DNA of 64,000 nucleotides from Psilocybe cubensis (taxonomy: Eukaryota): contig CM039002.1 of assembly GCA_017499595.2 (NCBI GenBank), positions 3,596,001-3,660,000 of the forward strand, in the 5' to 3' direction. The notes beneath the pieces are model-generated. The model searched no databases. It was not told the DNA's origin and was given only the letters and a program-made list of their open reading frames with translations. The translations under genes were made by a program, and so were the position numbers. Positions 25,279 through 52,750 of the stretch are shown here, one piece after another. Positions within the stretch are counted from its first letter, which is position 1. The number at the start of each line of letters is the position of its first letter.

Positions 25279-25368
25279 TTGCGAACGACTCGATTTCGGA
25301 ACACTCCGAAAATGTTTGGCGTGGCCTGGTTATTATAATGCTCGCATAGTCAACTTCACGCGCCTTCT
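25279..25368 (+). repeat. Dispersed hairpin repeat, copy 1 (left part missing)
   Basis: TTGCGAACGACTCGATTTCGGAACACTCCGAAAATGTTTGGCGTGGCCTGGTTATTATAATGCTCGCATAGTCAAC. Confidence 0.9.
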
Positions 25369-26271
25369 TTTCCCTCCTCCAGTGAATCTACAAGGAACAT
25401 ATTTGACACTCTTTAAGAATTATTTTCGCCACTGAGCCCAGATATGTTGAAGTACTACAGTGTGTTGATACACTGTGTAACAAAATAACCTACCTGCCAG
25501 CATTTTGATACTGCGATGTTTTTAGATGATTGGATTTCGGGAAGACATTCATTTCACATACGCAGTACGCAGCAGATAATAAACTGATTGATTACGTCTC
25601 GCGAGGCATGTATAAATTCATTGTCCATTTTCGCCTCCCCTCCAACCCACCTCGAAACCTACAAGGATCACCCAATTAATCATGTAGCTGACCAGACTCT
25701 GTATATGGTGACGAGCGTCGTCATGCTTTCTAGCTCACTGCTTGGTTTTCCATCGATCGAGTTATTCGACATTGCTTCCATTCGCTTCATCCATATAGCT
25801 AGAGTTACCACTATTGGCCGAGTACGTAGAATCATCACTATCGGCTGAGTCGCTGTCATTGTCTGTGGCGTGATCTTTTGCTATGTGTCGACTTCCTGCT
25901 TGGAGACTTTCTTCCTGAGGTGGCGACGCATGTTGGGGTTCAAACACTGAGAAAATCTGTCGGAATACTCTAGTTGGACCACTCAGAATAGCACCGCGGG
26001 TGCGACAAATGCTGCATTTGTGATCCTTGTCCCAAAAGAAGTCGTTCTTGTCCTTTATTATTCCAAGGCACGTCGAGCAGAACAAGTGACCACATGCTAA
26101 CCTTGAAAGCAAATCAAAGTGAGTCGACATGGTAAATGGTTGGTGGTTCAAAATCATCGCTTACATTGCCGGGTCTTTCATATAGGATAAGCATATAACA
26201 CATTCGGTCACTTGTTTTAAAGAGTTTTGCAGCTCTTCAAGCTGTCGATGATAGCTTTGAGCCTTGAGAAC

Positions 26272-26721
26272 TGTCAGGGCAACACTATAATCAGTGTGAC
26301 AAGGCCACCAACAAAGATTAAGCAAGAGAGAGAGAGAGAGAGCAGAGGGAGAGTAAGAGAGCAAAGAGAGAATAAGAGAGTGAGAGAGATTCAATGGTTC
26401 TAAGAGATCACACCAATGATAGTGGATATCCTAAGAGATTGAAGCTGAAGCTACAGCTACCTACAAGTCCAGTATTTATACTCTACAGCTATTCTAGAAT
26501 ATTCCCTACATTACATCATAAAGGAAGGTTAAAGAATAAAAGTGACATCATATAGAAAAAGGATGAGTAAGACTAGGAATCATATAGAATTTACTAGAAA
26601 GAAGTGGAGCAAGAAGGCTGTGATGAAAGAAATAAACTATCTAATCAGATAATTGATAAGATAATGAAAGGATAAGATAATTCTGTGAAGATAAAGAGGG
26701 GAAACTGGAGAAACCCTGACA
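26272..26721 (-). repeat. 3' LTR
   Basis: 450 bp; no difference from 32217-32666 seen by eye. Confidence 0.97.
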
Positions 26722-29700
26722 TCACCCCCTCTCTAAGGCACATTTTCCACAATGTGCACATGGATGGGTTAGTTTAGAGGGTTTAAGAAGAGGAGGAGGT
26801 TCAGTAAAGTTAATAATAGGAGTGAAAAAAAGTCTATCAAAGGTCACAGCAGAAATCCTTCTAGGTGCTGAAGGATGTTTGGCATGGAAGTCCTTGATAG
26901 CCTTAGAAGCATTTTTCAAATGCTCTGCAGGCTCCCAAGTGCATTCTTCATTAGGATAGTTCTTCCACTTGACCAAATATTGAAGTTTGTTTCTAAAAAG
27001 TCTGCTGTCCTTGATAAATTCAACTTCCCACTCAGGATTTTCTCCTTGAATGACAGGAGGTGGTCTAGAAGGAGGCTTTCTTCCTACAATATCTGGGTGA
27101 TAAGGTAGAAGTTTAACCACATTGAACACTGGATGGATTTTCATGGTAGATGGCAGCTTAAGCTCATAGGCATTAGGGCTAATAACTTTGGTAATTTTGT
27201 AAGGCCCATATCTTTTATCATCCAATTTCTTGGAGGGCCTATCAGTTTTGAGGTCCTTGCCATCCAACCATACCAAATCCCCAACTTTGTACTGAGTTGG
27301 AGTACCTCTGTGTCTATTATAGAATTTAGCCATATCATCAGCAGCTTTTCTAAGTGCAGACTCTGCTTCTTTCCTGGCTTCTTCCATATTTTTCACAAAG
27401 GTATCCACAGTGTCCATTTTACTATCTCTAAGGGGTTCAGTGCCCATTCTGGGATGTCTGCCATTATTGAGCATGAATGGTGTCTGCCTGGTTGAAGCCT
27501 GAACTCTATTGTTATAAGAGAATTCAGCTAGAGCTAACCATTCAACCCAATCATCTTGTCTATGGTTTATAAAGAGTCTAAGATACTGCTCAATTTCTTG
27601 GTTAACTCTTTCAGTCTGACCATCAGTTTGGGGATGGTAGGCTGTAGATGAGGCTGTCTGGATACCAAGTATTGAGTTGAGTTCTTTCATAAACCTTGAG
27701 ACAAACTGTGGACCTCTATCACACAGAATTTTAATGGGTAAGCCATGGTGTTTCCAGACATAATCTCTGTATAGTCTGGCTGTCCCTTCAGAAGTGACTT
27801 CATCTGTAGTAGGGATAATGTGGATCATTTTACTAAGTCTATCCACAACCACCATAATGGCATTATACCCTTGACATTCTGGTAACCCCATAATAAAGTC
27901 CATAGAGATGCATTGCCAGACATCAGAGGGAATCTCAGTAGGAATTAAAAGGCCAAGAGGTTTGGCTGGAAAGGTTTTGGTTCTGTTGCATCTATCACAA
28001 CCTCTGGTATAGGCTGCAATAAAATGTGACATTCCTGGCCACCAATAATTCCTAGAGACTAGCTCAATTGTCTTCCATTTCCCTGGATGTCCAGCAATGA
28101 AGGCATCATGGTGCAGTTCCACAATCTTTCTTCTAAGATCTTTGTCCTTGGGAACATACACCTTCCCCCTGTAGAGAATAAGGCCTTGTTCTTCTGACCA
28201 TTCCTGTCCTTCAATCTTCTTGGTAGAAGATTTCTTGAGCTCCTGAACTGCCTTGACCACCTTTTCATCCATCTCCTTAGCTTCTCTAATCTTCTTAAGA
28301 AGATCATTTTCTGCACCAGTAATGGTAGCATGACCCTGCTTGAGAGCCTGGATTTTAAAGTAGGAAGGTTTGAGGAGAACTACATTTTGGTTATCATTCT
28401 CTCCCTTTTTATGATCTGGTCTCCTAGACAAAGCATCTGGCTTAAGAGATCTTTTACCAGGCCTATGATGAAGAGTAAAATCAAATCTGGACAGGAAGAG
28501 TGACCATCTGGCTTGCCTTCTGCTGAGCTTTTGGGCAACCATAAAGTACTCTAAGTTTTTGTGGTCTGTCCAAATCTCAAAGGAATGTTGGGTTCCTTCA
28601 AGATAATGTCTCCATTCATCTAGTGCTCTGATAATAGCCAGCATCTCTTTGTCATGGATCTCATAATTCCTTTCTACTTCAGATAGACTCTTAGACATAA
28701 AGGCTACAGGATGCCATTTCCCATCTGATCCTTCCTGAGATAAAACAGCCCCAGTAGCATAATCTGAACTGTCTGCTTCAACTTTATATGGCTTGTTATC
28801 ATCAGGGAAAATCAAGACAGGTGAAGAAGTGACTTTCTTCTTTAACTGGTCAAAGGCTTCCTGCTGTCTAAGACTCCATCTCCAGACTGTTCCTTTCTTT
28901 GTCAATTCATGAAGGGGCTTAGCAATGTCTGCAAAATCCTCTATGAACCTTCTATAAAAATTAACAAATCCCAAGAATGATTGGACATCCTTGACATTTT
29001 CAGGTTCAGGCCATTTAGAAACTCCCTCTACCTTGACAGGATCCATCTCAATCCTGCCTTGTGAAATGATTAGTCCAAGATATTCAATCTTTTTCTTTTC
29101 AAATTCACATTTCTCTGCTTTAAGGTAGAGTTTGTTCTGTTCTAGGATTTGCAGAACTTGCTTGACTACCTCTCTATGATGATCAAGAGTCTCAGTGAAA
29201 ATTAAAATGTCATCCATGTAGACAATGACAACATTTCCATCAATGAGCTCAATAAAGATATCATTCATCATAGTTTGGAAGGTAGCAGGACTATTGGTTA
29301 AACCAAAGAACATGACCAATGGTTCAAACAGCCCTCTATTGGTTCTAAAGGCTGCTTTCCATTCATCTCCCTTTTTGATTCTGACATTGTTAAATCCCCA
29401 CCTAACATCAAGTTTGGTGAAGTATTTGGCCTTGCTGAGTTTGGTGATAATGTCAGAAATCAATGGAAGGGGGTAGGAGTTCTTGATAGTCATTTCATTC
29501 AGTTTCCTATAGTCCTGGACAAGCCTAAGAGATCCATCCTTCTTCTTGACAAAGAATACAGGGGAGGCCATAGGTGACTTGGAGGGTCTAATCCTGCCAG
29601 ACTTCAGATTTTCCTCTAAAAAGGCATCAAGTTCCTTTTGTTCATTGGGAGAGAGAGGATAAATCTTGGATCTATAAGGTTCAGAACCAGGTTTCAGCTC

Positions 29701-30591
29701 AATAGCATGATCCCAAGGCTTCCTGTCTGGTAGCCTATCAAAAGATTCCTTTGAAAAAACACCTTTAAACTGGTGATAGTGCTTAGGGACAGTTTCTTCA
29801 AAGGTTTTCTTAGGAGAATCAGCTTGCTGATGAGACTCTTCTGCTAATCTTTGAGACATAGTAGAAGTAGCATTAATAGACTGCTTCTGAGGATGAAGGT
29901 ATGAGATGAAAATTCTGTCCTCAGGCTCAATCTCAGAATCAGAAGAATCTTCAATAGAATCATCTTCTTCTTCATCAAATTGAGGGAGTTTCCTCCTTTT
30001 GACTGCAGCTATTCTCTGCCTCTTTCTTCTGGCTCTTTTGGCTTCCATTTGGCAGTCAGAGGGACATCTAATAAACTGGACATCCCCTGTCTTCCAATCA
30101 ACATCTGGATTATGGTGCCAAAGCCAAGTATGTCCAATGATAGCAGATTTGTCTCCCAAGTCACAAACAGCAAAGGTGGCCCTTTCTGTATGGTTTTTGT
30201 GTACCATAATTAAGTCTACTTCCTCATGGATAGAGCCACTCTTGTTGAGAGTACCATCAACATTATAGACTGGAATGGCTCTAGGAAGTTTTCTTGTGTT
30301 GAGATTATAATACTTCACAAAACCAGAATGCAGAAAGAGGCCAGTAGCTCCAGAATCAAGCAAAGCATCAACAGATAACCTTTTCTCTGTGTCCATTGTC
30401 TTTAAGATGACAGACAAATGGGTAGAGGTTTTAGGATTATGGTTGAGGATGTAGATTTTTTCAGGGAAGGTAGAAAGAGAGGAAGAAGAAGACATGATTT
30501 CTGCACCAGAATCTGAAGACTGAGGATCAAGTCTGTCAATTTCATTTTCTAGTACATTAAATCTATTCCATTGGGACATGTCTTTCACCAA
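26722..30591 (-). CDS. pol: Pol polyprotein (protease-RT-RNase H-integrase-chromodomain), probably reached by -1 frameshift from gag
   Basis: LLDSGAT (PR), YMDDIL (RT), EADSSDYATG/TDHKNL (RNase H), HH..H/CDRC plus DDE and GPY (IN), WEVEFI...YLVKWKNY...TWEP (chromodomain). Confidence 0.97.
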   Translation of the reverse strand: MVKDMSQWNRFNVLENEIDRLDPQSSDSGAEIMSSSSSLSTFPEKIYILNHNPKTSTHLSVILKTMDTEKRLSVDALLDSGATGLFLHSGFVKYYNLNTRKLPRAIPVYNVDGTLNKSGSIHEEVDLIMVHKNHTERATFAVCDLGDKSAIIGHTWLWHHNPDVDWKTGDVQFIRCPSDCQMEAKRARRKRQRIAAVKRRKLPQFDEEEDDSIEDSSDSEIEPEDRIFISYLHPQKQSINATSTMSQRLAEESHQQADSPKKTFEETVPKHYHQFKGVFSKESFDRLPDRKPWDHAIELKPGSEPYRSKIYPLSPNEQKELDAFLEENLKSGRIRPSKSPMASPVFFVKKKDGSLRLVQDYRKLNEMTIKNSYPLPLISDIITKLSKAKYFTKLDVRWGFNNVRIKKGDEWKAAFRTNRGLFEPLVMFFGLTNSPATFQTMMNDIFIELIDGNVVIVYMDDILIFTETLDHHREVVKQVLQILEQNKLYLKAEKCEFEKKKIEYLGLIISQGRIEMDPVKVEGVSKWPEPENVKDVQSFLGFVNFYRRFIEDFADIAKPLHELTKKGTVWRWSLRQQEAFDQLKKKVTSSPVLIFPDDNKPYKVEADSSDYATGAVLSQEGSDGKWHPVAFMSKSLSEVERNYEIHDKEMLAIIRALDEWRHYLEGTQHSFEIWTDHKNLEYFMVAQKLSRRQARWSLFLSRFDFTLHHRPGKRSLKPDALSRRPDHKKGENDNQNVVLLKPSYFKIQALKQGHATITGAENDLLKKIREAKEMDEKVVKAVQELKKSSTKKIEGQEWSEEQGLILYRGKVYVPKDKDLRRKIVELHHDAFIAGHPGKWKTIELVSRNYWWPGMSHFIAAYTRGCDRCNRTKTFPAKPLGLLIPTEIPSDVWQCISMDFIMGLPECQGYNAIMVVVDRLSKMIHIIPTTDEVTSEGTARLYRDYVWKHHGLPIKILCDRGPQFVSRFMKELNSILGIQTASSTAYHPQTDGQTERVNQEIEQYLRLFINHRQDDWVEWLALAEFSYNNRVQASTRQTPFMLNNGRHPRMGTEPLRDSKMDTVDTFVKNMEEARKEAESALRKAADDMAKFYNRHRGTPTQYKVGDLVWLDGKDLKTDRPSKKLDDKRYGPYKITKVISPNAYELKLPSTMKIHPVFNVVKLLPYHPDIVGRKPPSRPPPVIQGENPEWEVEFIKDSRLFRNKLQYLVKWKNYPNEECTWEPAEHLKNASKAIKDFHAKHPSAPRRISAVTFDRLFFTPIINFTEPPPLLKPSKLTHPCAHCGKCALERG

Positions 30592-30599
30592 TGGTGCTT

Positions 30600-31712
30600 C
30601 TAAAAATTTTTCTTTTCCTCATCTTTCTGCTCCTTGCCTTCCAAGATTAATTTCCCAAAGTAGTCAGCCAGTTCTTCATGGGTCATAGCATTGATGTTAA
30701 CTGATGACCTGCAGTTTACAGCCTTATGACCAGGCTTTCTGCACTTGAAGCAAACAATTGGCCTAACTGACTTCCATCCAGAGTCAACCTCCATGGGAAC
30801 TACATCTGGTTGCTTTGCCTGAGCACCAAAGGTCCTTGAGCTGCTATTGGAAAAGACTGGAGGATTTGGAGTAGGCTTAGGAACAGCCTTGGGAGTTGGG
30901 GCTTTAAGGAAGGGAGAAGAAGAGGAGGAGGAAAGAGACTTGGTAAAGGCCTCACTCTGTCTCCACTGCCTATCTAGCCTAGTACTCCATTTAATCCATC
31001 CATCCAAGGTTTTGGGCATGTCAGGAACATAGTAGACTGCATTCCTGAGATTTTCATTAAGCCCAGCCTTGAATTGGTCTACCAAAGCAGCATCATTATA
31101 CCCAGTATCTGAGATCAGAGCCCTGAAGCTAGCAACATACTCATCAGCAGTCTGTCTGCCTTGCTTGAGCATGTGCATTTTATGCTTAGCTGTGTTGGAG
31201 GGGTCTGGATCTGCAAACACTTCCCTAAATTCATAAACAAAGTCAGCCCAAAGACCTTCTTGGGACTGAGCATTGTCTATTACTTTAGTCTTCTCATATG
31301 CCCACTTCCCAGCAGTACCTCCTTTCATATGAGATAGAGCACAAATAACTTTCTGAAAGTCATCTGTGATCCCTTTCCCATAGAAATATAATTTAAGCTG
31401 ACTGAGGAAGTTTTCTGCCTTCTCCATAGAACCATCAAATGGATCTGGAGGTGAGACTTTAATGGCAGAGTGTGAACAGGAAGGGGCAACATGAGGAGTA
31501 GGGAAAGAGTGAATATCTAGAGCAGCAGGTGGTGGTGGTGGTGGTGGTAGTGATGGTGACTGACTGACTGGTTGCTGAGGGTGTGGTGGAGTGGATAATG
31601 ACTGCTGCTGCTGTCTAAGAAAATTCAACTCTTGGGTAAGGAGCTGGACCTGATGCATGAGCTCTTCCACAGAAGGAGTGGTGGGAGGCAATTGGGAGGG
31701 GTCCATGTCCAT
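30600..31712 (-). CDS. gag: Gag with CCHC zinc knuckle
   Basis: PDPFDG, MLKQG...EYVASF...FKAGL, CFKCRKPGHKAVNC. Confidence 0.95.
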   Translation of the reverse strand: MDMDPSQLPPTTPSVEELMHQVQLLTQELNFLRQQQQSLSTPPHPQQPVSQSPSLPPPPPPPAALDIHSFPTPHVAPSCSHSAIKVSPPDPFDGSMEKAENFLSQLKLYFYGKGITDDFQKVICALSHMKGGTAGKWAYEKTKVIDNAQSQEGLWADFVYEFREVFADPDPSNTAKHKMHMLKQGRQTADEYVASFRALISDTGYNDAALVDQFKAGLNENLRNAVYYVPDMPKTLDGWIKWSTRLDRQWRQSEAFTKSLSSSSSSPFLKAPTPKAVPKPTPNPPVFSNSSSRTFGAQAKQPDVVPMEVDSGWKSVRPIVCFKCRKPGHKAVNCRSSVNINAMTHEELADYFGKLILEGKEQKDEEKKNF

Positions 31713-32203
31713 GGGTAGGGGTAGGTAGGCTCTCTGATGTGTGTGTGGGAGAAGCTATCTACTGAAAGTGCCCTTGAAACTATACTAAGTATTCTAAAAA
31801 AATATCTATCTACTGGATACCCAGTTGTCACACCACTCAGGGCTCTAAACCTAGGATCACAGGGTTACTGGATATTTCCTAGACCACCAAAAACAGAACA
31901 CTAGTAGGACTGTGTCTGCCCCAACAGTTGGTATCCCTATCTACTAAGTTCACACACAGCACACAACAGAGAGTAGGAAAGATGATGAGCCAAAGGTCTT
32001 GAGGAAAGGTCTTGAGGAAAGGTTTTGAGGAGGATATTGAAGATTGGTGGAGATGTAGAGATTGGTAAGAAGATTGGTGAAGAGGTTGATGAAGAGGTTG
32101 GTGGGTTGGAAGTGGAGGAAGAAGGTTGAGGTAATGGTGTTGAAGAGGTTGAAGAGGTGAAGAGTTTGGTGTTGAAAGAGAGATGGTGGAGTTGTCTTGA
32201 GAG

Positions 32204-32214
32204 AGCTTCAATCT
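32204..32214 (-). promoter_or_regulatory. Self-priming primer-binding site
   Basis: AGATTGAAGCT lies 2 nt after the 5' LTR and is complementary to AGCTTCAATCT (32391-32381), which is 34 nt downstream of TATAAATA (32425-32418). There is no TGG tRNA-type PBS. Confidence 0.8.
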
Positions 32215-32216
32215 TC

Positions 32217-32666
32217 TGTCAGGGCAACACTATAATCAGTGTGACAAGGCCACCAACAAAGATTAAGCAAGAGAGAGAGAGAGAGAGCAGAGGGAGAGTA
32301 AGAGAGCAAAGAGAGAATAAGAGAGTGAGAGAGATTCAATGGTTCTAAGAGATCACACCAATGATAGTGGATATCCTAAGAGATTGAAGCTGAAGCTACA
32401 GCTACCTACAAGTCCAGTATTTATACTCTACAGCTATTCTAGAATATTCCCTACATTACATCATAAAGGAAGGTTAAAGAATAAAAGTGACATCATATAG
32501 AAAAAGGATGAGTAAGACTAGGAATCATATAGAATTTACTAGAAAGAAGTGGAGCAAGAAGGCTGTGATGAAAGAAATAAACTATCTAATCAGATAATTG
32601 ATAAGATAATGAAAGGATAAGATAATTCTGTGAAGATAAAGAGGGGAAACTGGAGAAACCCTGACA
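32217..32666 (-). repeat. 5' LTR
   Basis: 450 bp; contains the minus-strand TATA box. Confidence 0.97.
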
Positions 32667-33917
32667 AGAACGTAATCATCGAGCATGCTCGTTAATTCAG
32701 CAATGGTTTTGGTAGCCTCGATGTTATTCTGTGAACTGAATGTAAGCAAATATATAATATCAGACTTGCGGAATACTGTACTCACAGACTCAAGCATCCT
32801 TTTTTGGGCCTTTAATCGAGAAAGCTGCTAATAATGCATTCTATCAATAAATCAGGACTTGTGTAGATTGAAAAATCACGCTAACCTGACTATAAAGCCT
32901 CTGTTGGTTTTGTGCATTCTTAATCTTTGCACTGAGTTCTCGATTTTTTCCGATGAGGTGCTCATTTCCCTATTTGATGTGTACCATCTTAACAGAAGGA
33001 TCATTTGGAACAGTCAATAATACCTCAGTAAGTTTGAGAATATCGTTTCCTCTTTGAAATATCGATTCGGTTAGGCTAGAAATGCAGATAAGATTTAAAA
33101 GAAATAAATTTGCAGCAACTTATGATCAAACCTTTGAGTGCCCAGTTCTGCTTCTCGGTATAACCCGCTACGTGACTTTTGGAGGGAATGAGTGTTCCGA
33201 CCCACTGGGCCTAAGGTATGGTCGATCACTTACAACATCAACCCTTTGGGTCTCTACCTGCATCGATAATATGTGGTTAGAGGTATTGAACAGCTAGCTA
33301 TATATAGGTGCATACCTCCGACTCCCTTTTTAAAGACTGTCTACGTGCTTTATACTCGATGTATTTCCGTTCAATTTCTAGAAAATGAGCAGACATGGTG
33401 CAAAAATGAGTCGGGCGTGTTGAATGTTGACTAGGACTGCTAACCTCCTTATATGAAGTGGTTCCAAGCAAGATGGACAAGTATAATGTACTGTCTGTTA
33501 CTGGCACGGTCATTCATTACCCTAAAGCGGTTGCTTTCCGCCAATTCAAGTCATATGTTGACTTGCGAATTCCATATATGAACTGTTTTCAAGACAGACA
33601 AGTACTTGTTCTATTACGAACTGTCCGTTACTGGTACGGTCATTCATTTTCCCTAATGTGGTATCTTTCGCGCCAAATCAAGTCGTTTTGTTCACTCCCT
33701 AACAATCGGCTTCAAATTGCCAAGAGAAACTGTTCCTTGTTTTTTTTTTTTTGGTAATGTCATCCAAAACACCAGCTCACGAAGAATACCTATGGTGCAT
33801 TTGTAATTATAATGAAGTTCCTTAGAAGGTTTAAATGTTTGTGCACTGAAACAAACCCATATAAATGAACACATTGCTTTGAATTTAAACACTCTTTCCA
33901 ATCGTCCCAAAGTAAAC

Positions 33918-34953: not shown

Positions 34954-35150
34954 TAGCAATTGTCATTGCAACCTTGTGTATATTGAATGCAGCGTAGTCC
35001 CTAATTCCGTTTCGTACGCAACGACGAGCGCAACTTGAGGAAATAAAGGTCATGACCAAGCATTATAATCTGTAGTGTACGAGTCCTGAGAACTGTAAAA
35101 AATCGGTACAGGCGCTTGAGATCTTGGAACAGGAAAAAGAGTGTCGGGTC

Positions 35151-35260
35151 GGGCTTGTGTGCCGATTTAGCCCTTGGCGACCGAGTCGATTTCAGAGTAT
35201 TCCGAAAATGATTGGGGCGACCCAGTTATAACACATGCACGCTGAATTTTGCACCTTTCT
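35151..35260 (+). repeat. Dispersed hairpin repeat, copy 2 (diverged)
   Basis: GGGCTTGTGTGCCGATTTAGCCCTTGGCGACCGAGTCGATTTCAGAGTATTCCGAAAATGATTGGGGCGACCCAGTTATAAC. Confidence 0.8.
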
Positions 35261-38303: not shown

Positions 38304-38418
38304 TCGTGCCTTTGTGTTGATTTAGGTATATCGCTAACGACTCAATTTCGGAACACTCCAAAAATGTTTGGCGTGACTCGGTTATAACGTTCGCAAAGTC
38401 GATGTCACTCGCTTTCTC
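38304..38418 (+). repeat. Dispersed hairpin repeat, copy 3
   Basis: TCGTGCCTTTGTGTTGATTTAGG...AACGACTCAATTTCGGAACACTCCAAAAATGTTTGGCGTGACTCGGTTATAACG. Confidence 0.9.
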
Positions 38419-38530
38419 TTTGATTCAATACAGTTCTGCCGTTTTCGAGCGCGAACGATTGGTATTTCCAAGCCTGAACGCTATAGCCACACCTAACTTG
38501 TCATTTGATCAATCTCCTGACGCAGCACCT

Positions 38531-39651
38531 ATGCCAACACGCTCGATTTCAGTTATTAGTATATCATCTTCGGAAGATGAGGCTGCCCCGCTTACCGAAG
38601 GAAAACAAAAGTCTGAGAGAAAGCAAAAGGCTATCGATCATCCTGCCAGTGCTTCTTCCTTGTAAGCTCTTTCCTTCATTACTTTCTCTATGCTCATCTT
38701 TTTCTTAGTGTATCTAACTCTCCAACCCCTCACGCTGCCAAGCGTTCTAGAATCAATGTTTCCCCTTCTTCGTGAATTCTAATTTTTGTTACAATTCCTT
38801 CTTCTCATTTTTGTCTGTATATAGCCCCCCGCCTACTTCAAACACAGGCCATAGCATTGGGCCCACAAAATCGCGCGCGGTTCCTTCGACTGGTCATCTT
38901 CAGCCTGTAAAGCCCGTTATACCAACACCCCCTATTGCGTCTATGGCTCCGCCCTTAGCCCAACCATCTCGCCTTTCTGCGCGTCGAAATAGGTCTCCCC
39001 GTCGTTATATGGTAGCATCGAATTGTTATCCCAGGTTGAAAACACACCGTATTGCACCCATGGCTCCACCCTTGGCCCAACCATCTCGCTTTTCTGAGCG
39101 ACGAAATAAGTCGCCCCCTCGCCATATGGTGGCATCAAATTCTTCCAGGTCGACTTCTTCAACCGCACGTAGTATGTTTTTCCTAAATAATTCTCATTGA
39201 TATCTCTCATCTCTCTTTTTCTCTAGCGTTACCACCCACTGCTCCAGCTGAGCCATCCACCATGCCTCATATTAACATTCGAGCACGTCAACGCGCGGAG
39301 CGTCCTCTCCGTCCTACACAACGTCAGGCCGGCATCGAAGAGGTTTTGCCTAGTGACCCCAGGCCATACACAGTTGCAGAGGTAGCTCCCCCTGCTGGTG
39401 CTGAACGTCTCGTCGCCCCGGTTCCTGCAGCCGCGCCTTCTGCTGTCGTGACACAAGCTCGTCAACTCGAGCCACCTCCTTTAGTGCGCGCGCCTCGTCC
39501 TACTATGCAGGTCGAGGTTGTGATTTCTTCTCGCCCGCCTGTTCTTACACGTCGAGGACGACGTACGGGCCTCTCTGCACCAGTCCGCCAAGTCGTTGCC
39601 AGCCGCGCCCCTTCTTCAATCGAGGACGAGGATGGCACCATTGACTCCTGA
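38531..39651 (+). CDS. Pro/Ser/Arg-rich disordered protein with an internal ~117-bp duplication
   Basis: Spliced exons MPTRSISVISISSSEDE... to ...EDEDGTIDS*; IAxMAPPLAQPSR..RRNxSP occurs twice. Confidence 0.55.
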
Positions 39652-43600: not shown

Positions 43601-44829
43601 TATACGCCAACCAAGTCAATTCCCTGACTCACCAGCACAAACTAGAGGCATCGAAATATCAGGAAGACATTAGGACTATGAGGACTGACCTGGAAAATTT
43701 GCGAGAAACTGTCGCGGAGAAGGACGAGAGTATAACCTCTCTTAATAGGGCTAGGGCTGCGTTAGAATTACAACTCGCTGACCAAAGCGCTCAGATAGTA
43801 AGTCAATCTAACTTTCAATCTGATATCGTTGAATTTAGTTGTATGTTAGGCAAGCTTGGCTAGCAAAGTGCAGATTGGGGATGTCAACGAGCTAACGGTG
43901 CTACGTAAAGAATGCGACAGGTTATGGAAATTAATTGAAGAAAAGGACGATGATCTTGAAAAGGAAGAGGCAATGGTCATGGCGAGTAGTCATAAAATTC
44001 GGACCTTCTGATGCTTCGACTTATCAACTCCAATTTTAGGCCCTGAGAGTAGAGATGGAAAGGATGAAGGCAGAGGCACCTCTCGCGGCCAACAAAGCAA
44101 ATCAGACTATGACTGACATGACCACTGGTACTGTGCAGCCGGGAACTTCGAGGGGCAAGCAAAGGCAAATAAGCCCATCTATGCTTTCCTCTGCATTTCC
44201 GGTAAAAATCTTGCTTACTTCTCGACATTATTCTCCTTTCTGACCATCTCAAAAGTTAACAGCAGCGAGAATGTCAAACTACCGTGTAGGAAGTTCAGTA
44301 AGTCGATAATTAACGCCATATTTTGATATAAATTAATTGCAACTAGTCTCGAAATGTGCGTTTTGGATCCGTTGAGGAGGTGGAGGACCATGTTTCGCAA
44401 TACGCCTCTTCATCACGAGTAGGTGGCCAAGGGACATCCAATTATATGACGCCATCTTCATCATCCTCAAAATCTGCTAAGATTGACACATCTCATTTTG
44501 GACGTGATCGCACCCCCCCCGTTCCACCGCCCAGGACTTACGGCAAAGGAAGAGGAGCAGCGTCTTCCCGATCTTCCCGAAGAGCAGCATCCGTAGATCG
44601 CGCAGAACCCGCTACGCCTTCACATTCACGTCTAGATGATATTGACGAGGACTACTCTGATGATATTCCTCCAGAAGTTTCCCGGCCTCAAACTTCATCG
44701 TCAGATCCCGATGTTGCTCAAGCCCTACTCGCGGTCGCCGCCAAGATTGGACAGATGTCCGAAAACTTGACAGCGCTCCCGACTTTGTTATCAACGCGAC
44801 TGGGCCTATCTGGAGGGACTTCTGACTGA
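40696..44829 (+). CDS. Large multi-exon coiled-coil protein
   Basis: About 20 short exons with GT-AG ends; E/K/L/Q-rich heptad ORFs at 42553-42951 and 43003-43863; low-complexity tail at 44356-44829. Confidence 0.7.
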
Positions 44830-45064
44830 CTTCAAGTTTGAATCAGATCATAAAACATACTACATAACTTTAGTATTTAAAACAAATCAAAAACAGTGCT
44901 AGAAAATACACACTCTTCCCTATCTCCTCCGGATACAAGTCAACTTATAGCAAAGGATGATTAAACCAGATCAACATCATGACATTGCGTGGATGTTGTG
45001 GCACCTTTGCAAGTTAGATTCCAATGATTGAAAATAGCTAGCTGTCTCTATTGCTAGAACCAGG

Positions 45065-45175
45065 TTACGGAATATTCGGAACACCCCTAATTTTTTTCGA
45101 GCGACCGCACCTATAATCAATCTGAAGTGATGCTTTTCTGTTCAACTACACTGTGATCCATATTTGACACACTTT
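45065..45175 (+). repeat. Dispersed hairpin repeat, copy 4 (strongly degenerate)
   Basis: TTCGGAACAC core, then TATAAT and the downstream ATATTTGACAC also seen after copies 1 and 5. Confidence 0.6.
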
Positions 45176-45631
45176 TGGAGGATTTTTCTTAAGGAAAGCA
45201 GCAGAGATCACATTTGTGCGAAGTAATATAACGTTCAAATAGTGTGGAAACGCATGTTGGCAATATAGAAATCTCCATCCCATAGGCTATGTGGCTCACT
45301 GGTAGAGTCCATGATTTACGGCGGTGGAATGTCCTCAAATTCCGATCTTTCATTTGAACACAAGGCAGAACAGATCAGCTAATTGAGTACCTAGAGCTTC
45401 TCTTGAATCCTCGCTGATGGGCACAGATCAAACACTCCAAAAAACTGATGTTTTTGACAATATTTAATAAATACTTCCGCACACGTCTCCTATACGCCCC
45501 CTGCACTTCCCTCGCTTCCCTCGCTTACCCTGCAAGGCAAATTATGTATGCCCCTTGCTGATTTATGCACGAAATTTTCACATTCGTCAATTTGGACATA
45601 AAATGATAAATTCAGATTATACTTCTACCAC

Positions 45632-46626
45632 TCAGTCCCTTGGCAATACTAGATTCAAAATGTCTTTCAGAGATGGTAAGCTGCCGGTCGTTCCCAACTG
45701 ACAGCTACGACATGTAGGAATCCCATCTTTTGGATATTGATGTATTTGCTCCACTTTTCTATCCGCGCAATCCTTGCAAAAGATATGGCCGCAGCCAAAG
45801 CTTGAACCAAAGTGAGGTTTGTATCGCTGAACGTAGTGCATAAAGGGACATACATTACAGGTTCCCTAACGAAGTTAGAGCAAACGCTACAATGAGCGTA
45901 GGCTTGAAGCACATGCTCAATCTGATTACTAAGGTCAGATACCATGGTATATAAGTTTCAAGCCCAATACCCTTACCTGTAGGATTCGCTTGTGTTCAGA
46001 TTGACAACGGATAGCTTCGGCTTGAAGCTTATGAAGAGTATCGTTTAGCAGACGGATATCCTAAACAATCATATCAGCCCTATCTTCACAAATATAAGTA
46101 AAAACATACGTCTTGTGCACGCATTAGGGCGCGGTGTTTCTGGAAGAAACAATTGATATTACCATATCATTAGCAGGTGTTGCTACTCACTTCCACTATC
46201 TCGAATTGAAAGTTATCCTTGGTTCGCTGTACTTCCTCCAGAGATTCCCGCATCTTCAGATTTTCCTGTAATTTTCGAATCGCCCTCATGTTAAAAATGT
46301 TATTTACGCTAGTTTCAAGACGCACCTTTGTAGCTTCCCTTAGTTCTGCTTTGATTTGGTCAAGCTCCTGGCGATCCTGTTCATGATACTTTGTCACCGT
46401 CATCGGAAGTATGATTCTGTTAACAACTTACTGCGAGCGACGAAAGCCCGACTGAAGAAGAAGACAACCCGTCTCTTGAAGCATCAAAAGAAGACACGGA
46501 AGATGATGCAGCCTGCAAACCGCCAGGGGCTTTCTCCGTGCGGATCAAAAGTGACTTTTCTCTTCGACGTTTGGCCTTGTATAACTCGTATTCCTTTTCT
46601 ATTTGCTGAAACTCGGTGGTATACAT
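45632..46626 (-). CDS. Coiled-coil plus C3HC4 RING-finger protein, paralog of 25762-33396
   Basis: MYTTEFQQIEKEYELYKAKRR...; RING domain CSVCSNFVREPVM|FGCGHIFCKDC...CRSC, with the intron in the same position as in the paralog. Confidence 0.8.
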
Positions 46627-47209
46627 GCTTGAGTTGATAGAGGGTCTGGAGAACCTGGAGAAGGATTCGTGATGTGCTAACTTATACAAAGATGCGTGGG
46701 ACATTGGATTAGGCAACTTTGATCAAATTCAATTCGAGTACAAGGGACGCCGTTTGACATCCGAAAACAAGGCGATCATTGAAGCGCGGCAGCCATGAAA
46801 GGGGAAATATTAACAAGAGAATAATGTAGCCGCATAACGGGTGAAGATAGAAATCCCTGAGGGTTGTTTTGATTGCTGTTTAAGGATACATCAACTTTCC
46901 AATATTTCGAGGAGCATAACGTACACGAGGATCATACCGCAAAAATATATTTAAACCGAAAAGTGCCGGGTCAGGCACGCTGGCAATCTCATCTACCTTC
47001 CGAAAGTGGAGAAAACGATGTATCAACCAAATGTTATACGTGAGCTCCGCAAGAGTGTAGTTGCATAAGCCGGAAGGTAGTAAATACGGGGCCATTCTGA
47101 TTGCTGTTTAAGGATACAATGTTTGGGTTACCTTTGAGGAGATATCATACTGTGCAAGGTACAACGAGGTCAACAAGACTAGCAGCCTGTGCAAAAAGAG
47201 GGCCAATGG

Positions 47210-47325
47210 CGTGCCTGTGTGCTGATTTAGCCACTGCGAACGACTCGATTTCGGAACACTCCGAAATTGTTTGGCGTGGCCCGGTTATAATGCTCATGTA
47301 GTCAATTTTGCACGCTTTCTGCTCC
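47210..47325 (+). repeat. Dispersed hairpin repeat, copy 5
   Basis: CGTGCCTGTGTGCTGATTTAGCCACTGCGAACGACTCGATTTCGGAACACTCCGAAATTGTTTGGCGTGGCCCGGTTATAATGCTC. Confidence 0.93.
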
Positions 47326-47599
47326 TGCCCTGTGGGGTGTGTTTGACACTTTTCTAACGGGTTTGATTTTGGATGGTTACACTGCCCATATGTTCTCGAA
47401 GTACTGGTATGCAAGCAGTGCGTAAAAAGGCATGGACTCAGTGGTTACCTCTGTGTTGTCCGAGGACAGGAGCCACAATCAAACCTAATATTTTCAGTAC
47501 TCGGACTGAAGGCATTTAATCTTCAGGTAGGTACCAATAACTGTGTGTTTAATAGGGGAAATAGCACACGTCTAATCTGTCTATTGCTCTTCATGCTGT

Positions 47600-48994
47600 G
47601 AGGCAACTTACGCTTCATGAATGAGACTTGTAGGTAACTGGAAAATGAACACCGTATTACACTACAACCGTTCGTAACATCTGATCATCCCGTCGGCTTT
47701 TTCAATCATACATCTGCATCTAATCTCTCCTTAAAGCGTCCAACTCGGCAGTCAGGCTGTCAATCTTGCGGCGCAGAGCATGGGCGGATTCCATTTCTTG
47801 CTGGTGCTCCATCACAATCATCTCATACTTACGCGACAAAGTCGCATGCCAAGCCTTATGATTTTGCAGCTCACGCCGTGCATCCATCAGCTCTCTTTCG
47901 ATGGTCTGAGACTGTCCGATGACTCTTTGCGTGTTATACCGAGGCGAATAATGATTGTCGTCTTCCGCGGCCTGTTATTCGAGTGAGTCAATAGTGTTAC
48001 TACTGAGGGTATGATCCCGCGGAACGTACAGAAAAAGCGTAATCCCGCCTAAGTGTTCTATTCTTTCCCTTAGCCCCATTCTTGATGATAGGTTGTTAGC
48101 AATCATTGCGCTACATAGCGTACAAAACAGAACCTACGTGACAACCTCTTTTCTGTCCATCCCTCGTGTCTCTTGATTCTGGGTTGGAAAAAGAGTTTGC
48201 GCTCCTCATTCGGTTGATCGTACAAAAACTCTGGACGCAACTATATTACCAATGGGGTTCGCATCATAAATCAAACTAAACGTACATTTCTACCCTTGCA
48301 ATCAGTAGGATATGGCTCGTAAGCATTACGGCGACCCCTGGATGGCCCGTCACTCTTATAGCAGGCTTTGAGTACAAAGAGATTTATTTATAAAGGAACA
48401 ATACAACTCACAGCACTTTGTCGAAAGGTAGACCGGGGACGATCACTCTGCGGTGATCAAATTCAAACATGAGCAAGGTAGTAGTAAAGATAGTACTCAC
48501 AACATGGCGAGATGTCGCCTGCGGTGCTTGGCCTTCAACAGCTATGGATTCAAACATTGAGTTCTCAATCTGTATATTACATCAGAATATTCAAAAGTAT
48601 CAAAATGCATGCTCACTGGAGTCATCAGCTCAAGTGTACCATATTGACGTTGCTGTACATCGGCTCCAGGGGTATTAACAACCTATTGTCTTGATTATCG
48701 ATGGTAAAATGAGGCAATTTCGGTAAGCAAACATACTTGGGCTGCTCCAGTTCCATGGGCAGCAACTTCCTCCCTGTTCCCTTCGTTTGACGACCTCATC
48801 ATGGAGAAAACAGGCGTGGAGTGAATGTACGAGCGCCGAGGGAATCTATTATATAGTAAAAATGCTGTTGAATGTGTAGCGCTTTGGTTCAGAATAACAT
48901 TGAATGCTCTACAAAAAGGAATTCAAAGGTTGTTCCATTCCAGGTATCAAAAAATAGACGAGACTAACAGAGTAAGTGTAAGTCGATGGTCCAT
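47600..48994 (-). CDS. Probable multi-exon orphan gene
   Basis: ATG at 48994 followed by several short open exons with GT/AG ends. No recognisable domain; 3' end approximate. Confidence 0.35.
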
Positions 48995-50177: not shown

Positions 50178-51332
50178 ATGGATCTGACACCAGCGCTCGA
50201 ACCCGTGAATACTCCGGTCTCTTCTTCTTCAAACCGCTCCAAACGTCCTCGAAGGAAAAAGCTAAACAATAGCGGAAACCTCGAGTGCAACATTCCTCGC
50301 CCCAGTAACCCATTCATCCTCTTCCGGGACGATTTCTTACGACAAGGTTGGATGCTCAAATTGGAAGGGATTAACCATTGCAGTCAGTCTGCTCTCATCG
50401 GAAAAATCTGGAGCCGATTGGGGGAGGATAAAAGGGCGTACTGGAAGAAAAAATCAGCTCAAGAGAAACTTGAATACTGGGCCAACAATCCTCAGGTCAG
50501 GTATACGAAAAAGTCTTTGATTAAACCCAAAGCTGCTCGTAGCAAGCAAAGTAACAACCATGGTTCCTTTGCATTTCGACACGCATTCCACGACGGTGTA
50601 GAAGAAGATAAATGTCTTTGGCAGATGGCGGAATCCTACACTCCTGGACTCACGTATCATCACAGCATAGTAGATGAACAGCCAGTATACGAGGATCCAT
50701 TGGTTTCCGAATCTCCCACCGAACGTCCCAGTCAATCTCTACCACCTTTCCAAGCGAGCAGCCAACAGGAAGAATACCGAGAGGGCCTCCTTCATTTACC
50801 CTACTTCGTGCTTGACCCCCTACTGCACGACGTCAACTCGGATCCTCATCAACAAGTTTCTTTTGAAAATATCATCTGTCAAGCCGAGGATCAGGACGAA
50901 TACAGTCAATATCCAATTCCAGTTGCTAATATACCTGGTCAATGGGACCACGCGGGTTTTGCGTTCAATTTGGATGGTCACAACAGTGCTGCCAATGATA
51001 TGTGGTCAACTAACGCCCTGTCGAACTATGTAAGTGTGCATCTACTTATGGCGTATGCACAAGGCATTCTTATGAGTTGGAAACAGTACTCGGATAACTT
51101 TTTTGGGTCCTACAATAATCATCAACTCGATGGCACTTTCAACATTCCGTCAGCTCTGTATACGGAACCGGACGTATCCATGTCGATCGAGACTTGCATG
51201 TCCGTCTTTGGTAACCAAGAATCAGGCTTTGGATATGCTACAGGCTTTGACGATTCGGTCCCATCTAGCACCTTAGCTGAAAATGTGATCCGTGACTTGA
51301 CTTCAGACATACAGATATCCACCTTTCAATAA
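50178..51332 (+). CDS. HMG-box (MATA/SOX-type) transcription factor
   Basis: IPRPSNPFILFR...SALIGKIWSRLGEDKRAYWKKKSAQEKLEY...P.VRY; probable in-frame 57-nt intron at 51030-51086. Confidence 0.85.
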   Translation: MDLTPALEPVNTPVSSSSNRSKRPRRKKLNNSGNLECNIPRPSNPFILFRDDFLRQGWMLKLEGINHCSQSALIGKIWSRLGEDKRAYWKKKSAQEKLEYWANNPQVRYTKKSLIKPKAARSKQSNNHGSFAFRHAFHDGVEEDKCLWQMAESYTPGLTYHHSIVDEQPVYEDPLVSESPTERPSQSLPPFQASSQQEEYREGLLHLPYFVLDPLLHDVNSDPHQQVSFENIICQAEDQDEYSQYPIPVANIPGQWDHAGFAFNLDGHNSAANDMWSTNALSNYVSVHLLMAYAQGILMSWKQYSDNFFGSYNNHQLDGTFNIPSALYTEPDVSMSIETCMSVFGNQESGFGYATGFDDSVPSSTLAENVIRDLTSDIQISTFQ

Positions 51333-51918
51333 TTTCAACTATAATCTATGGTATCATTTGTCGACTTTAACTGCCTTCCTTTCTTCAATACTTTGGTACT
51401 TCAATTTACACCGGTAATTTTGTCCTAATAGTTTAGTACATTCCCTAGGAATAAAATTTAATATTTTGGCACCTTTCTATGATTCTATTGACGAAGGGAA
51501 GAGACAAGTCGAACTCGTGCCCGTGCCCAGCGCGGCAGCGCAAAAGTCTTCAACGGCCGCATCTATCTCTTTCAACGTGGTTGCATGAAAACGCATAAGG
51601 CCAAGCAATTCTGGATTAGGGCTACGACACGTATAGTTTAGAAGAGTCGATCGTACCTTGTTGACCGTTTATTTCAGATCCACCAAGAACATCGAATACC
51701 CCGGACGAGAAAATTTGCCCACCACCCACCACCTTGGTTAACGAAGCGTTTGCGTAACTGATGTCGTGGTATCGACAATTAATTGAATACTACCAGGGAG
51801 CGCACTGTCAATGCCTCCGTTGTCTGGATACAATGTATACTCATAAATTATACAAAGTATGGAGGTCTACGATACATGGACGGACAGAGAGTGACAAAGG
51901 GTGGAAAGAGAGTCGAAT

Positions 51919-52034
51919 CGTGCCTGTGTGCTAATTTAGCCATTGCGAACGACTCGATTTCGGAACACTCCGAAAACGTTTGGCGTGGCTTGGTTATATG
52001 CTCGCATAGTCAATTTCACACGCTTTCTGCTCCT
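51919..52034 (+). repeat. Dispersed hairpin repeat, copy 6
   Basis: CGTGCCTGTGTGCTAATTTAGCCATTGCGAACGACTCGATTTCGGAACACTCCGAAAACGTTTGGCGTGGCTTGGTTATATGCTCGCATAGTCAATTTCACACGCTTTCT. Confidence 0.93.
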
Positions 52035-52657: not shown

Positions 52658-52683
52658 TAGGGTTTAGGGTTTAGGGTTTAGGG
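52658..52683 (+). repeat. Interstitial telomeric seed (TTTAGGG)n
   Basis: TAGGG TTTAGGG TTTAGGG TTTAGGG at the junction between unique DNA and the first retroelement. Confidence 0.92.
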
Positions 52684-52750
52684 GGGGAGCGAGCACCGAG
52701 CGAAGCGAGGTGCGAGCGACTAGTTTAAACTGGGAGTTAAAATGGAAAGA

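What the first reader, a model, noticed from the sequence alone, without database searches (positions are those of the whole stretch)
25279..52034. Candidate gene-cassette array: six co-oriented ~110-bp conserved repeats separate 2-7 kb gene modules
Seen: the motif GTGCCTGTGTGCTGATTTAGCCAYTGCGAACGACTCGATTTCGGAACACTCCGAAAATGTTTGGCGTGGCYYGGTTATAATGCTCGCATAGTCAATTT recurs at ~25279, 35151, 38304, 45065 (degenerate), 47210 and 51919. It is always on the + strand and always between genes. The intervening modules are ~3.5 kb (after removing the gypsy), 3.2, 6.8, 2.1 and 4.7 kb, and each holds 1-2 intron-rich genes (RING, coiled-coil, HMG-box, orphans). Copies 1, 3, 5 and 6 align base for base, whereas the cargo is unrelated or only faintly similar at protein level. 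Inference: the repeat is a functional cis site, such as a recombination/integration site, the end of tandemly inserting mobile units, or a shared regulatory or processing element. The layout recalls an integron cassette array. I do not recognise it as a described fungal element, and no recombinase or transposase is visible in the window.
Basis: partly seen in the sequence, partly recalled or inferred. Interest (0 to 1): 0.88.

Follow-up and report, generated by a model that had tools for sequence, protein, structure and literature searches.

The report
Promoter-like repeat at chromosome end
Six same-direction copies of a roughly 130-base non-coding element lie between unrelated genes in the last 27 kb of a Psilocybe cubensis chromosome; they look like copies of one small gene switch (a promoter) spread by old local duplication, not like a gene-cassette system.

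Summary
The repeat is real. Five copies are solid (nhmmer E 1e-33 to 1e-40) and one, at 45.06 kb, is decayed. All are on the + strand and intergenic, and their flanks are unrelated. Every copy keeps one geometry: an 18-nt palindrome with inverted CGG/CCG triplets, then a TATA-like hexamer 37-38 nt on, then a pyrimidine tract 21-30 nt further. This is the layout of a compact fungal Pol II promoter pointing towards the chromosome end. I found no RNA family, RNA fold, codon signal, terminal inverted repeats, target-site duplication or recombinase.

The array lies in an unstable chromosome end. One strain ends in telomere-type repeats at 46051. The window's own end is capped at 52658 by telomere-attached Penelope-like retroelements. 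Another strain lacks the region. None of these breakpoints lies in the motif. Two modules carry distantly paralogous RING genes, each with a copy beyond its stop, which shows old duplication of a unit.

Best reading (about 0.45): a conserved cis-regulatory or promoter module multiplied by local duplication. The integron-like cassette reading has no support. Interest is moderate to low.

The parts
25256..25396 (+). Repeat copy c1. Perfect palindrome at 25293-25310, TATA-like run at 25331, CT tract from about 25357. It lacks the left ~25 nt of the family.
35150..35289 (+). Repeat copy c2, the most diverged solid copy. The left CGG of the palindrome is mutated to CAG. It lies in a 3'/3' convergent gap between a + gene (stop 35038) and a minus gene (stop 35464).
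38305..38432 (+). Repeat copy c3. The right CCG of the palindrome is mutated to CCA. Its TATA-like hexamer at 38382 is 150 nt upstream of the ATG of a + strand ORF (38532).
45055..45260 (+). Decayed copy c4. It keeps a half-site at 45073-45082, a CTATAA 38 nt on, and a downstream 12-mer shared with c1. It lies in a 3'/3' gap between gene 3b (stop 44829) and RING gene A (stop about 45635).
   Evidence: (E 0.59)
47210..47338 (+). Repeat copy c5. Perfect palindrome at 47248-47265. It lies between the start of minus gene A (ATG 46704) and the stop of minus gene B (47723).
51919..52053 (+). Repeat copy c6. Perfect palindrome at 51957-51974. It lies 587 nt after the stop of the HMG-box ORF and about 600 nt before the telomere-type repeats.
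25765..33513 (-). RING1: a coiled-coil plus C3HC4 RING gene, interrupted by the Ty3/gypsy element. It is a distant paralogue of gene A. Its stop lies 369 nt right of c1.
26271..32666 (-). Ty3/gypsy LTR retrotransposon with 451-nt identical LTRs and a 5-bp target duplication (AGAAC). It is not part of the repeat family.
35464..37140 (-). Module-2 coiled-coil gene (M2) on the minus strand. Its 5' end is not defined; it lies towards c3.
38532..39648 (+). Gene 3a: a proline-rich + strand ORF set directly downstream of c3. The model is built from ORFs only.
40700..44829 (+). Gene 3b: a 1014-aa coiled-coil protein. Its public model is named hypothetical protein of Psilocybe cubensis. It matched only itself in the protein search.
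45635..46704 (-). Gene A: a coiled-coil plus RING gene. Its public model, P0011, is 275 aa. It matched only itself in the protein search.
47723..48802 (-). Gene B: a coiled-coil ORF set on the minus strand, with no RING. The start is provisional.
50178..51332 (+). HMG-box ORF. The Pfam HMG_box match is weak (E 0.002).
52658..52687 (+). Telomere-type T2-3AG3 repeats with the G-rich strand on +. This marks the capped chromosome end, to which the terminal retroelement array is joined.

Best explanation
The repeat is a compact promoter-like cis-regulatory module for RNA polymerase II. It consists of a dimer-type palindromic activator site with inverted CGG/CCG triplets six bases apart, a TATA-like box at a fixed distance, and a pyrimidine-rich start region. 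It points towards the chromosome end.

It was multiplied by old local duplications inside a fast-changing chromosome end of Psilocybe cubensis. It stayed recognisable because the module itself is constrained, while the surrounding orphan genes and spacers diverged, were replaced or were lost.

Shown: the anatomy, the co-orientation, the unrelated flanks, the small and local copy number, the unstable subtelomeric setting, and one ancient duplicated unit (repeat plus RING gene).

Inferred: that the module binds a zinc-cluster-type factor, starts transcription about 30 nt after the TATA box, and is kept by selection. If it fires rightwards, it is a sense promoter for gene 3a at c3. At c1, c2, c4 and c5 it is an antisense promoter running into the 3' ends of minus-strand genes.
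For: 1. Fixed geometry in 6 of 6 copies. The palindrome start lies 37-38 nt before the TATA-like hexamer. A 24-nt tract of at least 79% pyrimidine begins 21-30 nt after the TATA in 5 of 6 copies (71% in c4). A random locus reaches this with probability 0.10.
2. The perfect 7+4+7 palindrome with CGG-N6-CCG is present in 3 copies, and c2, c3 and c4 are one mismatch away in the TCGG-N6-CCGA scan. No other perfect match occurs in the 64 kb. Zinc-cluster factors typically bind pairs of CGG triplets as homodimers (PMC6265462, passages seen).
3. Similarity stops about where transcription would start, and the downstream sequence differs between copies.
4. c3 sits 150 nt upstream of an ATG that opens a + strand gene.
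5. The two most decayed copies (c2, c4) are the two that lie in 3'/3' convergent gaps with no gene start nearby. c3 and c5 each have a gene start within about 510 nt, and left of c1 lies a minus-strand transcription-factor-like gene whose start I could not define.
6. It is not an RNA or a coding exon. There is no Rfam or tRNA hit. Folding z-scores run from -1.8 to +0.55 in 8 folds. Variable columns fall 4/5/6 over the three codon positions.
7. Old duplication of a unit. RING1 and gene A are distant paralogues: N-terminal exon E 3e-4, and a RING exon on the same strand. Each has a copy (c1, c4) 370-500 nt beyond its stop.
Against: - No transcript evidence at all. No RNA run listed holds the region, so no start site is shown.
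- Only c3 has a clear sense gene downstream. In four copies the predicted transcript would be antisense, and c2 and c4 have no gene start on either side.
- The CGG triplets are not better conserved than the rest of the element; 2 of the 5 solid copies have one triplet mutated.
- About 125 nt of continuous 78-90% identity is more than a binding site plus TATA box needs. Meanwhile the paralogous RING proteins have fallen to about 30% identity. This could instead mean recent copying or gene conversion.
- c1 and c6 are the most alike although they are the furthest apart.
- No intact zinc-cluster factor was found next to the array. The neighbouring PF04082-type gene matches only residues 247-471 of its 829-aa homologue, and no zinc-cluster motif was detectable.
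- The pyrimidine tract and the TATA box are inherited together, so the six copies are not independent observations.
Confidence: 0.45

Rival explanations
1. A functionless low-copy subtelomeric repeat. On this view a short stretch was copied around this chromosome end, or kept similar, by ectopic gene conversion or repair-associated copying. Its promoter-like look is inherited from one ancestral promoter and means nothing at most copies.
For: - The region is very unstable. X7 ends at 46051 in telomere-type repeats, the window is capped at 52658, X12 lacks the region, and X1 continues past 52650 with an inverted, diverged copy of 47522-47640.
- Other short patchwork similarities exist: 37771-37872 against 52068-52177 at 70%, and 46867-46890 against 47095-47118.
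- Identity between copies does not follow distance or the age of the RING duplication.
- c1 switches abruptly from no similarity to 90% identity at 25279.
- Two of the six copies have clearly decayed.
Against: - Conversion needs flanking homology, and the flanks show none.
- The fixed palindrome-TATA spacing is kept even in the decayed c4.
- The better-kept copies tend to lie near a gene start.
- Copies are 10-25% diverged, so any homogenisation is weak.
Confidence: 0.22
2. A 3'-flank element of the minus-strand genes, such as a terminator, a polyadenylation region or a barrier between tandem genes. It would have been inherited with each gene when an ancestral unit of minus gene plus downstream element was duplicated.
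For: Four copies (c1, c2, c4, c5) lie 175-500 nt beyond the stop of a minus-strand gene. These genes are RING1, the module-2 gene, gene A and gene B. c6 is followed directly by a minus-strand ORF that ends at 52036. The RING1/c1 and gene A/c4 pairs show that gene and element were duplicated together.
Against: - The distance from the stop codon varies from 175 to 500 nt.
- c3 is followed by a + strand gene start, not by a minus-strand gene end.
- Read on the minus strand, the order of TATA and palindrome is not that of any 3'-end signal I know (recalled knowledge, not tested).
- Apart from RING1 and gene A, no similarity was detected between the minus genes.
Confidence: 0.12
3. A recombination or integration site, or the conserved end of serially inserted mobile modules.
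For: - The copies are co-oriented and separate unrelated cargo.
- Each copy has a central palindrome, which extends to an imperfect hairpin of about 65 nt in c5 and c6.
- The flanks do not align.
Against: - No recombinase, Rep/helicase or transposase was found in about 55 ORFs scanned.
- Gene orientation within modules is mixed.
- The strain differences have breakpoints outside the motif.
- There are no copies at 80% likeness in strain X12 and only about one or two beyond the window's own in X1.
- A CTRR-type 3' end follows the hairpin in 1 of 5 copies, and conservation runs about 70 nt past the hairpin.
- There are no terminal inverted repeats or target-site duplications.
Confidence: 0.07

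Closest known systems
Zinc-cluster (Zn2Cys6) activator sites in promoters of co-regulated fungal genes. Examples are the inverted CGG triplet sites of Gal4, Put3 and Ppr1. I recall the six-base spacing as that of Ppr1 and UaY; this was not checked in a paper here.
   Same: It has inverted CGG/CCG triplets at a fixed spacing in a perfect palindrome. The site lies a fixed short distance upstream of a TATA-like box and is repeated at several places in one gene neighbourhood.
   Different: The whole ~125-nt block is repeated, not just the site. Most copies are not upstream of a sense gene. Two solid copies have a mutated triplet. No intact factor gene was found, and no binding or transcription data exist.
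Subtelomeric low-copy repeats and duplication patchworks, such as the yeast core X and subtelomeric repeats and the human subtelomeric duplicon boundaries (recalled)
   Same: It is confined to a chromosome end, is co-oriented with respect to the telomere, lies in a strain-variable region, and sits among fast-evolving orphan genes.
   Different: Several copies lie in one arm at 2-10 kb spacing, rather than one per end. It is very short. It appears nearly absent from the rest of the genome. The one duplicated block seen in X1 has the repeat inside it, not at its edge.
Integron gene-cassette arrays (attC sites)
   Same: Co-oriented imperfect-palindrome sites separate unrelated cargo.
   Different: The host is a eukaryote. 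There is no integrase. The cargo genes contain introns and point both ways, one or two per module. No cassette-wise strain variation was seen.
Helitron ends, MITEs, SINEs and solo LTRs
   Same: It is a short repeated non-coding unit with a hairpin, and like an LTR it carries a TATA box.
   Different: It has none of the defining ends, target duplications, tails or internal Pol III boxes. It has only 6-8 copies, all local, and no autonomous partner.

Membership tests
Integron-type cassette array | A site-specific recombinase gene beside the array | tested here: not met
   Pfam scans of about 55 ORFs across the window found only the integrase of the Ty3/gypsy element. Short exons may have been missed.
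Integron-type cassette array | One co-oriented ORF per cassette, with the site at its 3' end | tested here: not met
   Genes lie on both strands, and modules 1, 3 and 5 hold two genes.
Integron-type cassette array | Strains differ by whole cassettes, with junctions in the site | tested here: not met
   X7 ends at 46051 inside gene A. X1 departs from the window at about 52650. X12 lacks everything. Only 3 other genomes were seen, as contigs.
MITE | Terminal inverted repeats, a target-site duplication, and many dispersed copies | tested here: not met
   The ends are not inverted repeats and no duplication is visible at the boundaries. At the c6 core only 4 X1 contigs are laid in total.
SINE | A tRNA-, 5S- or 7SL-derived head with an internal Pol III promoter, and an A-rich or simple-repeat tail | tested here: not met
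   ARAGORN found nothing. There were no Rfam hits. There is no tail; the right end is a CT-rich tract.
Solo LTR | TG...CA ends, a 4-6 bp target duplication, and a related full-length element | tested here: not met
   No consistent TG/CA ends or duplications were found. There is no similarity to the Ty3/gypsy LTR or to the terminal retroelement. By contrast, the real Ty3/gypsy element shows TG...CA ends and the AGAAC duplication.
Helitron end | A hairpin about 10 nt before a CTRR 3' terminus, and Rep/helicase in autonomous copies | tested here: not met
   CTGG follows the hairpin in c1 only (1 of 5 copies). Conservation continues about 70 nt beyond the hairpin. No Rep/helicase ORF was found.
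Zinc-cluster-type UAS plus core promoter | Inverted CGG triplets at a fixed spacing | tested here: met
   The site is perfect in c1, c5 and c6 and one mismatch away in c2, c3 and c4. There is no other perfect site in the 64 kb.
Zinc-cluster-type UAS plus core promoter | A TATA-like box and start region at a fixed distance | tested here: met
   The distance is 37-38 nt in 6 of 6 copies. A CT-rich tract follows 21-30 nt later in 5 of 6. The copies are homologous, so this is a single observation.
Zinc-cluster-type UAS plus core promoter | It lies upstream of a transcribed gene, and transcripts start there | tested here: inconclusive
   Only c3 has a sense ORF start (150 nt after the TATA box). 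No RNA run holds the region.
Zinc-cluster-type UAS plus core promoter | It is bound by a cognate factor | not testable with these tools
   The adjacent PF04082-type gene is only a partial match, and no zinc-cluster motif was found.
Plain segmental (tandem) duplication | The flanks are homologous as well as the motif | tested here: inconclusive
   At DNA level, no: the largest z-score is 2.1 in 40 comparisons. At protein level, yes for one pair: RING1 beside c1 and gene A beside c4.

The most novel reading that the evidence does not exclude
The element is a chromosome-end-oriented cis site. It could be a telomere-facing promoter of subtelomeric non-coding transcripts, in the manner of TERRA promoters. 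Or it could be a junction used when new terminal modules are added. On this view the six copies record successive former chromosome ends or serial terminal additions. A weak, post hoc hint is that both observed capped ends lie within 1 kb distal of a copy: 46051 lies after c4, and 52658 after c6. The chance of that is about 0.05.
Probability: 0.08. Interest if true: 0.75.

Novelty: new member of a known kind. Interest (0 to 1): 0.33.

Why it matters
If the promoter reading holds, this is a clear natural case of one small regulatory module being reused at several unrelated, lineage-specific genes in a rapidly rebuilt chromosome end. Some of that reuse would be antisense. It would then be a handy system for asking how new genes in fungal subtelomeres acquire regulation.

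It does not open a new class of mobile or recombination system. The main practical value of this report is to remove the integron-like reading and to define the element precisely enough for a reporter or 5'-end mapping test.

Tried and rejected
- No whole genome is held for this window, so the profile could not be scanned genome-wide.
- Two metagenome pattern scans were run. One gave 0 hits. The other gave one hit that shares only the 21-mer, in GC-rich, bacterial-looking DNA, and is a chance match.
- Sequencing-run search: no RNA holder was listed. The one RNA-guessed run that I laid (X13) covered only 49321-49380, so nothing can be said about expression.
- Rfam at gathering level over the whole window and at E up to 10 around c5 gave nothing credible. 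No tRNA or tmRNA was found.
- Consensus RNA fold: 23 predicted pairs, weak energy, and 4 pairs with double changes, all outside the palindrome stem. Single folds were not better than shuffles.
- Coding-exon idea. An open minus-strand frame runs through 4 copies, and a 19-codon + frame ends at the TATA box. I rejected this because there is no codon periodicity.
- Pheromone-precursor or small-ORF idea downstream of the copies: no CaaX-type ORFs.
- LTR/TRIM idea, prompted by a purine-rich run left of c2, c5 and c6: the ends are inconsistent and no internal homology exists.
- Similarity between the repeat and the terminal retroelement unit: only 8-9-mers, nothing at E below 0.01.
- A zinc-cluster factor next to the array: only a partial PF04082-type match, with no zinc-cluster motif.
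- Protein-level paralogy among all modules by tblastx: none beyond the repeat itself.
- Earlier notes of this scan: none for this genome or this sequence. Word searches gave only analogies in other organisms.
- Literature searches found no description of this element. The searches were: subtelomeric/basidiomycete/conserved/intergenic repeat (listing only) and Psilocybe cubensis/telomere/repeat (listing only). Supplementary files were not consulted.
Full report
OBSERVATION

The motif is real and far beyond chance. A 35-nt core with up to 3 mismatches occurs 4 times, all on the + strand, and none of 100 shuffles gave any match. The repeat finder adds the more diverged copy at 35151 (family D10).

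An nhmmer profile built from the five copies recovers them at E 1e-40 to 2e-33, which is circular by construction. Its real use is negative. Nothing else in the 64 kb scores better than E 0.59 (45075-45106). The only minus-strand hits lie on the copies themselves and reflect an internal palindrome.

Pairwise identities run from 76% (c2-c5) to 89-90% (c5-c6, c1-c6) over 66-127 nt.

The copy at 45065 is not significant as an alignment: its scores are 22-29, against 49-174 for the other pairs. It does keep a half-site, the same 38-nt distance to a TATA-like hexamer, and a downstream 12-mer at about the same offset as in c1. I accept it as a decayed sixth copy.

The flanks are unrelated. In 40 flank comparisons out to 400 nt on either side, the largest z-score against shuffles is 2.1. 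tblastx finds no module-to-module protein similarity outside the repeat.

ANATOMY

Every copy has the same order and spacing of three parts:
- An 18-nt palindrome of 7+4+7 bases, whose arms hold inverted CGG and CCG triplets six bases apart. It is perfect in c1, c5 and c6. c2, c3 and c4 are one mismatch away in the TCGG-N6-CCGA scan. There is no other perfect site in the window.
- A TATA-like hexamer 37-38 nt after the palindrome start, in 6 of 6 copies.
- A pyrimidine-rich tract (24 nt, at least 79% C or T) beginning 21-30 nt after the hexamer, in 5 of 6 copies. A random locus reaches this with probability 0.10.

Similarity ends shortly after this tract.

There is no Rfam or tRNA match. No fold is better than shuffles; z-scores run from -1.8 to +0.55 in 8 folds. 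There is no covariation in the stem. There is no codon periodicity: the 15 variable columns of 60 fall 4/5/6 over the three codon positions. I saw no terminal inverted repeats, target-site duplications or tail.

SETTING

The window is the end of a chromosome.
- From 52658 the G-rich strand of telomere-type T2-3AG3 repeats runs rightwards.
- It is followed by tandem 5.1-kb units that are again separated by such repeats.
- Each complete unit carries a 1188-aa minus-strand ORF (two complete ORFs lie in the window). By eye the ORF has reverse-transcriptase motifs. It has no Pfam or PDB sequence hit. Its nearest language-model neighbours are RT-bearing clusters, commonest in rotifers.

This fits endonuclease-lacking Penelope-like elements of the Athena/Coprina type, which attach to chromosome ends (PMC8557442, passages seen).

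Laying contigs of four coded runs on 33000-52650 showed four things:
- X7 is near-identical from 33000 to 46051 and then continues in telomere-type repeats. This is a terminal truncation inside gene A.
- X1 matches the window to about 52650. It then continues with an inverted, diverged copy of 47522-47640 instead of the telomere-type repeats.
- X12 carries the same species label as some holders but lacks essentially the whole stretch, including every repeat copy at 80% likeness.
- At the core of c6 only 4 X1 contigs are laid in total, its own plus three. So the family has at most one or two members outside the window in that genome.

Contigs can miss things, and the table was cut (50 pieces were not shown), so these are bounds and not exact counts.

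Public protein models that match two of the genes at 99-100% identity are named hypothetical proteins of Psilocybe cubensis. In the 5.8-billion-protein search each matched only itself. The cargo therefore consists of lineage-specific orphan genes.

GENE CONTEXT

This comes from ORFs plus the two public models.

| Copy | Left neighbour | Right neighbour |
|---|---|---|
| c1 | Minus-strand fragment homologous to the PF04082 region of agaric transcription factors (23237-24100) | Stop of the minus-strand RING1 gene (25765) |
| c2 | Stop of a + gene (35038) | Stop of the minus gene M2 (35464) |
| c3 | 5' side of M2 | A + ORF whose ATG (38532) is 150 nt after the TATA-like box |
| c4 | Stop of gene 3b (44829) | Stop of RING gene A (about 45635) |
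| c5 | ATG of gene A (46704) | Stop of gene B (47723) |
| c6 | HMG-box ORF (stop 51332) | ORF fragments cut by the capped end |

The repeats therefore keep one orientation relative to the chromosome, not relative to the genes. The two most decayed copies are exactly the two in 3'/3' gaps.

HISTORY

RING1 is interrupted by a very young Ty3/gypsy element with identical 451-nt LTRs and an AGAAC target duplication. RING1 and gene A are distant paralogues:
- The N-terminal exons align at 31% identity (E 3e-4).
- Both have a C3HC4 RING on the minus strand.
- By eye the RING is split by an intron at the same place in both.

Each has a repeat copy 370-500 nt beyond its stop. A unit of RING gene plus element was therefore duplicated long ago. 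c4 has decayed as neutral DNA should. c1 is still 85-90% identical to c5 and c6. This points either to constraint on the element or to later copying or conversion.

INTERPRETATION

The order palindromic site, TATA box, pyrimidine-rich start region is the layout of a compact fungal Pol II promoter. The association of CT-rich tracts with start sites in filamentous fungi is recalled, not checked here. Pairs of CGG triplets are the usual targets of dimeric zinc-cluster factors (PMC6265462, passages seen). The six-base spacing as that of Ppr1 and UaY is recalled.

I therefore read the element as a promoter-like regulatory module pointing towards the chromosome end. It was multiplied by old local duplication and kept where it still matters (confidence about 0.45).

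The weaknesses are real:
- There are no transcript data.
- Only c3 has a sense gene downstream.
- The CGG triplets are not specially conserved.
- About 125 nt of conservation is more than a site plus a TATA box needs.

Rivals:
- A functionless subtelomeric patchwork repeat kept similar by conversion (0.22).
- A 3'-flank element of the minus-strand genes (0.12).
- A recombination site or mobile-element end (0.07).

COMPARISON AND VERDICT

The integron analogy fails on the recombinase, on cassette orientation and on strain junctions. The MITE, SINE, solo-LTR and Helitron definitions each fail on their defining ends.

The element is an undescribed sequence family. Literature searches (listings only) found nothing on it. 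It is, however, of a known kind: a lineage-specific, low-copy subtelomeric non-coding repeat with the anatomy of a promoter.

Two earlier notes of this scan on other organisms reached similar 'ordinary repeat at a chromosome end' verdicts (e1-675910, e1-552348). They are analogies only, and I did not test them.

Interest is moderate to low. The boldest reading still open is a telomere-facing, chromosome-end-specific cis element that marks successive ends (about 0.08).

Noticed in passing
window 52658-64000: A terminal array of 5.1-kb units separated by telomere-type T2-3AG3 repeats. Each complete unit has ~720-nt repeated ends and a 1188-aa minus-strand ORF (two complete ORFs lie in the window). 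The ORF has RT-like motifs by eye. It has no Pfam hit even at E up to 5 and no PDB sequence hit. Its nearest language-model neighbours are RT-bearing clusters, commonest in rotifers. It looks like an endonuclease-lacking, telomere-attached Penelope-like element (Athena/Coprina type) that Pfam does not recognise.
   Followed up: partly
window 46051 and about 52650 (runs X7 and X1): Strain-specific chromosome ends. X7 stops at 46051 inside gene A and continues in telomere-type repeats, at a short TTTAG-like seed. X1 departs from the window at about 52650, exactly where the window's telomere-type repeats begin. It continues with an inverted, diverged copy of 47522-47640. X12 lacks the whole 33-52.6 kb stretch.
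   Followed up: partly
window 26271-32666: A very young Ty3/gypsy element with a chromodomain integrase, 451-nt LTRs that are 100% identical, and the target duplication AGAAC. It is inserted inside the RING1 gene.
   Followed up: yes
window 23237-24100 (minus strand): A fragment homologous to residues 247-471 of 734-840-aa agaric proteins that carry PF04082 (the fungal transcription-factor middle domain). It lies directly left of c1. No zinc-cluster motif and no conserved C-terminus could be found, so it may be a truncated or decayed gene.
   Followed up: partly
window 45427-45553: A short high-copy repeat. Many small contigs of X1, X7 and X12 pile up here (summed depths up to about 150-400, against about 20 elsewhere). 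It includes a 13-mer that resembles the right half of the palindrome. It is probably the end of a dispersed element.
   Followed up: no
window 49321-49380: A 60-nt piece that matches, with 3-4 differences, part of a longer contig in X7, X12 and the RNA-guessed run X13 (depth 565 in X13). It looks like a captured fragment of a highly expressed gene located elsewhere.
   Followed up: no
window 37771-37872 and 52068-52177: A second short direct similarity (70% over 112 nt, E 1e-5), one copy about 430 nt upstream of c3 and the other just downstream of c6. It is open on the minus strand in both places. A further decayed palindrome lies at 38177-38198, about 110 nt before c3.
   Followed up: no
window 38924-39144 and 33446-33684: Two local tandem duplications of about 115 nt (81% and 75% identity). 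The first lies inside the proline-rich gene 3a. The second lies around the first exon of RING1.
   Followed up: no
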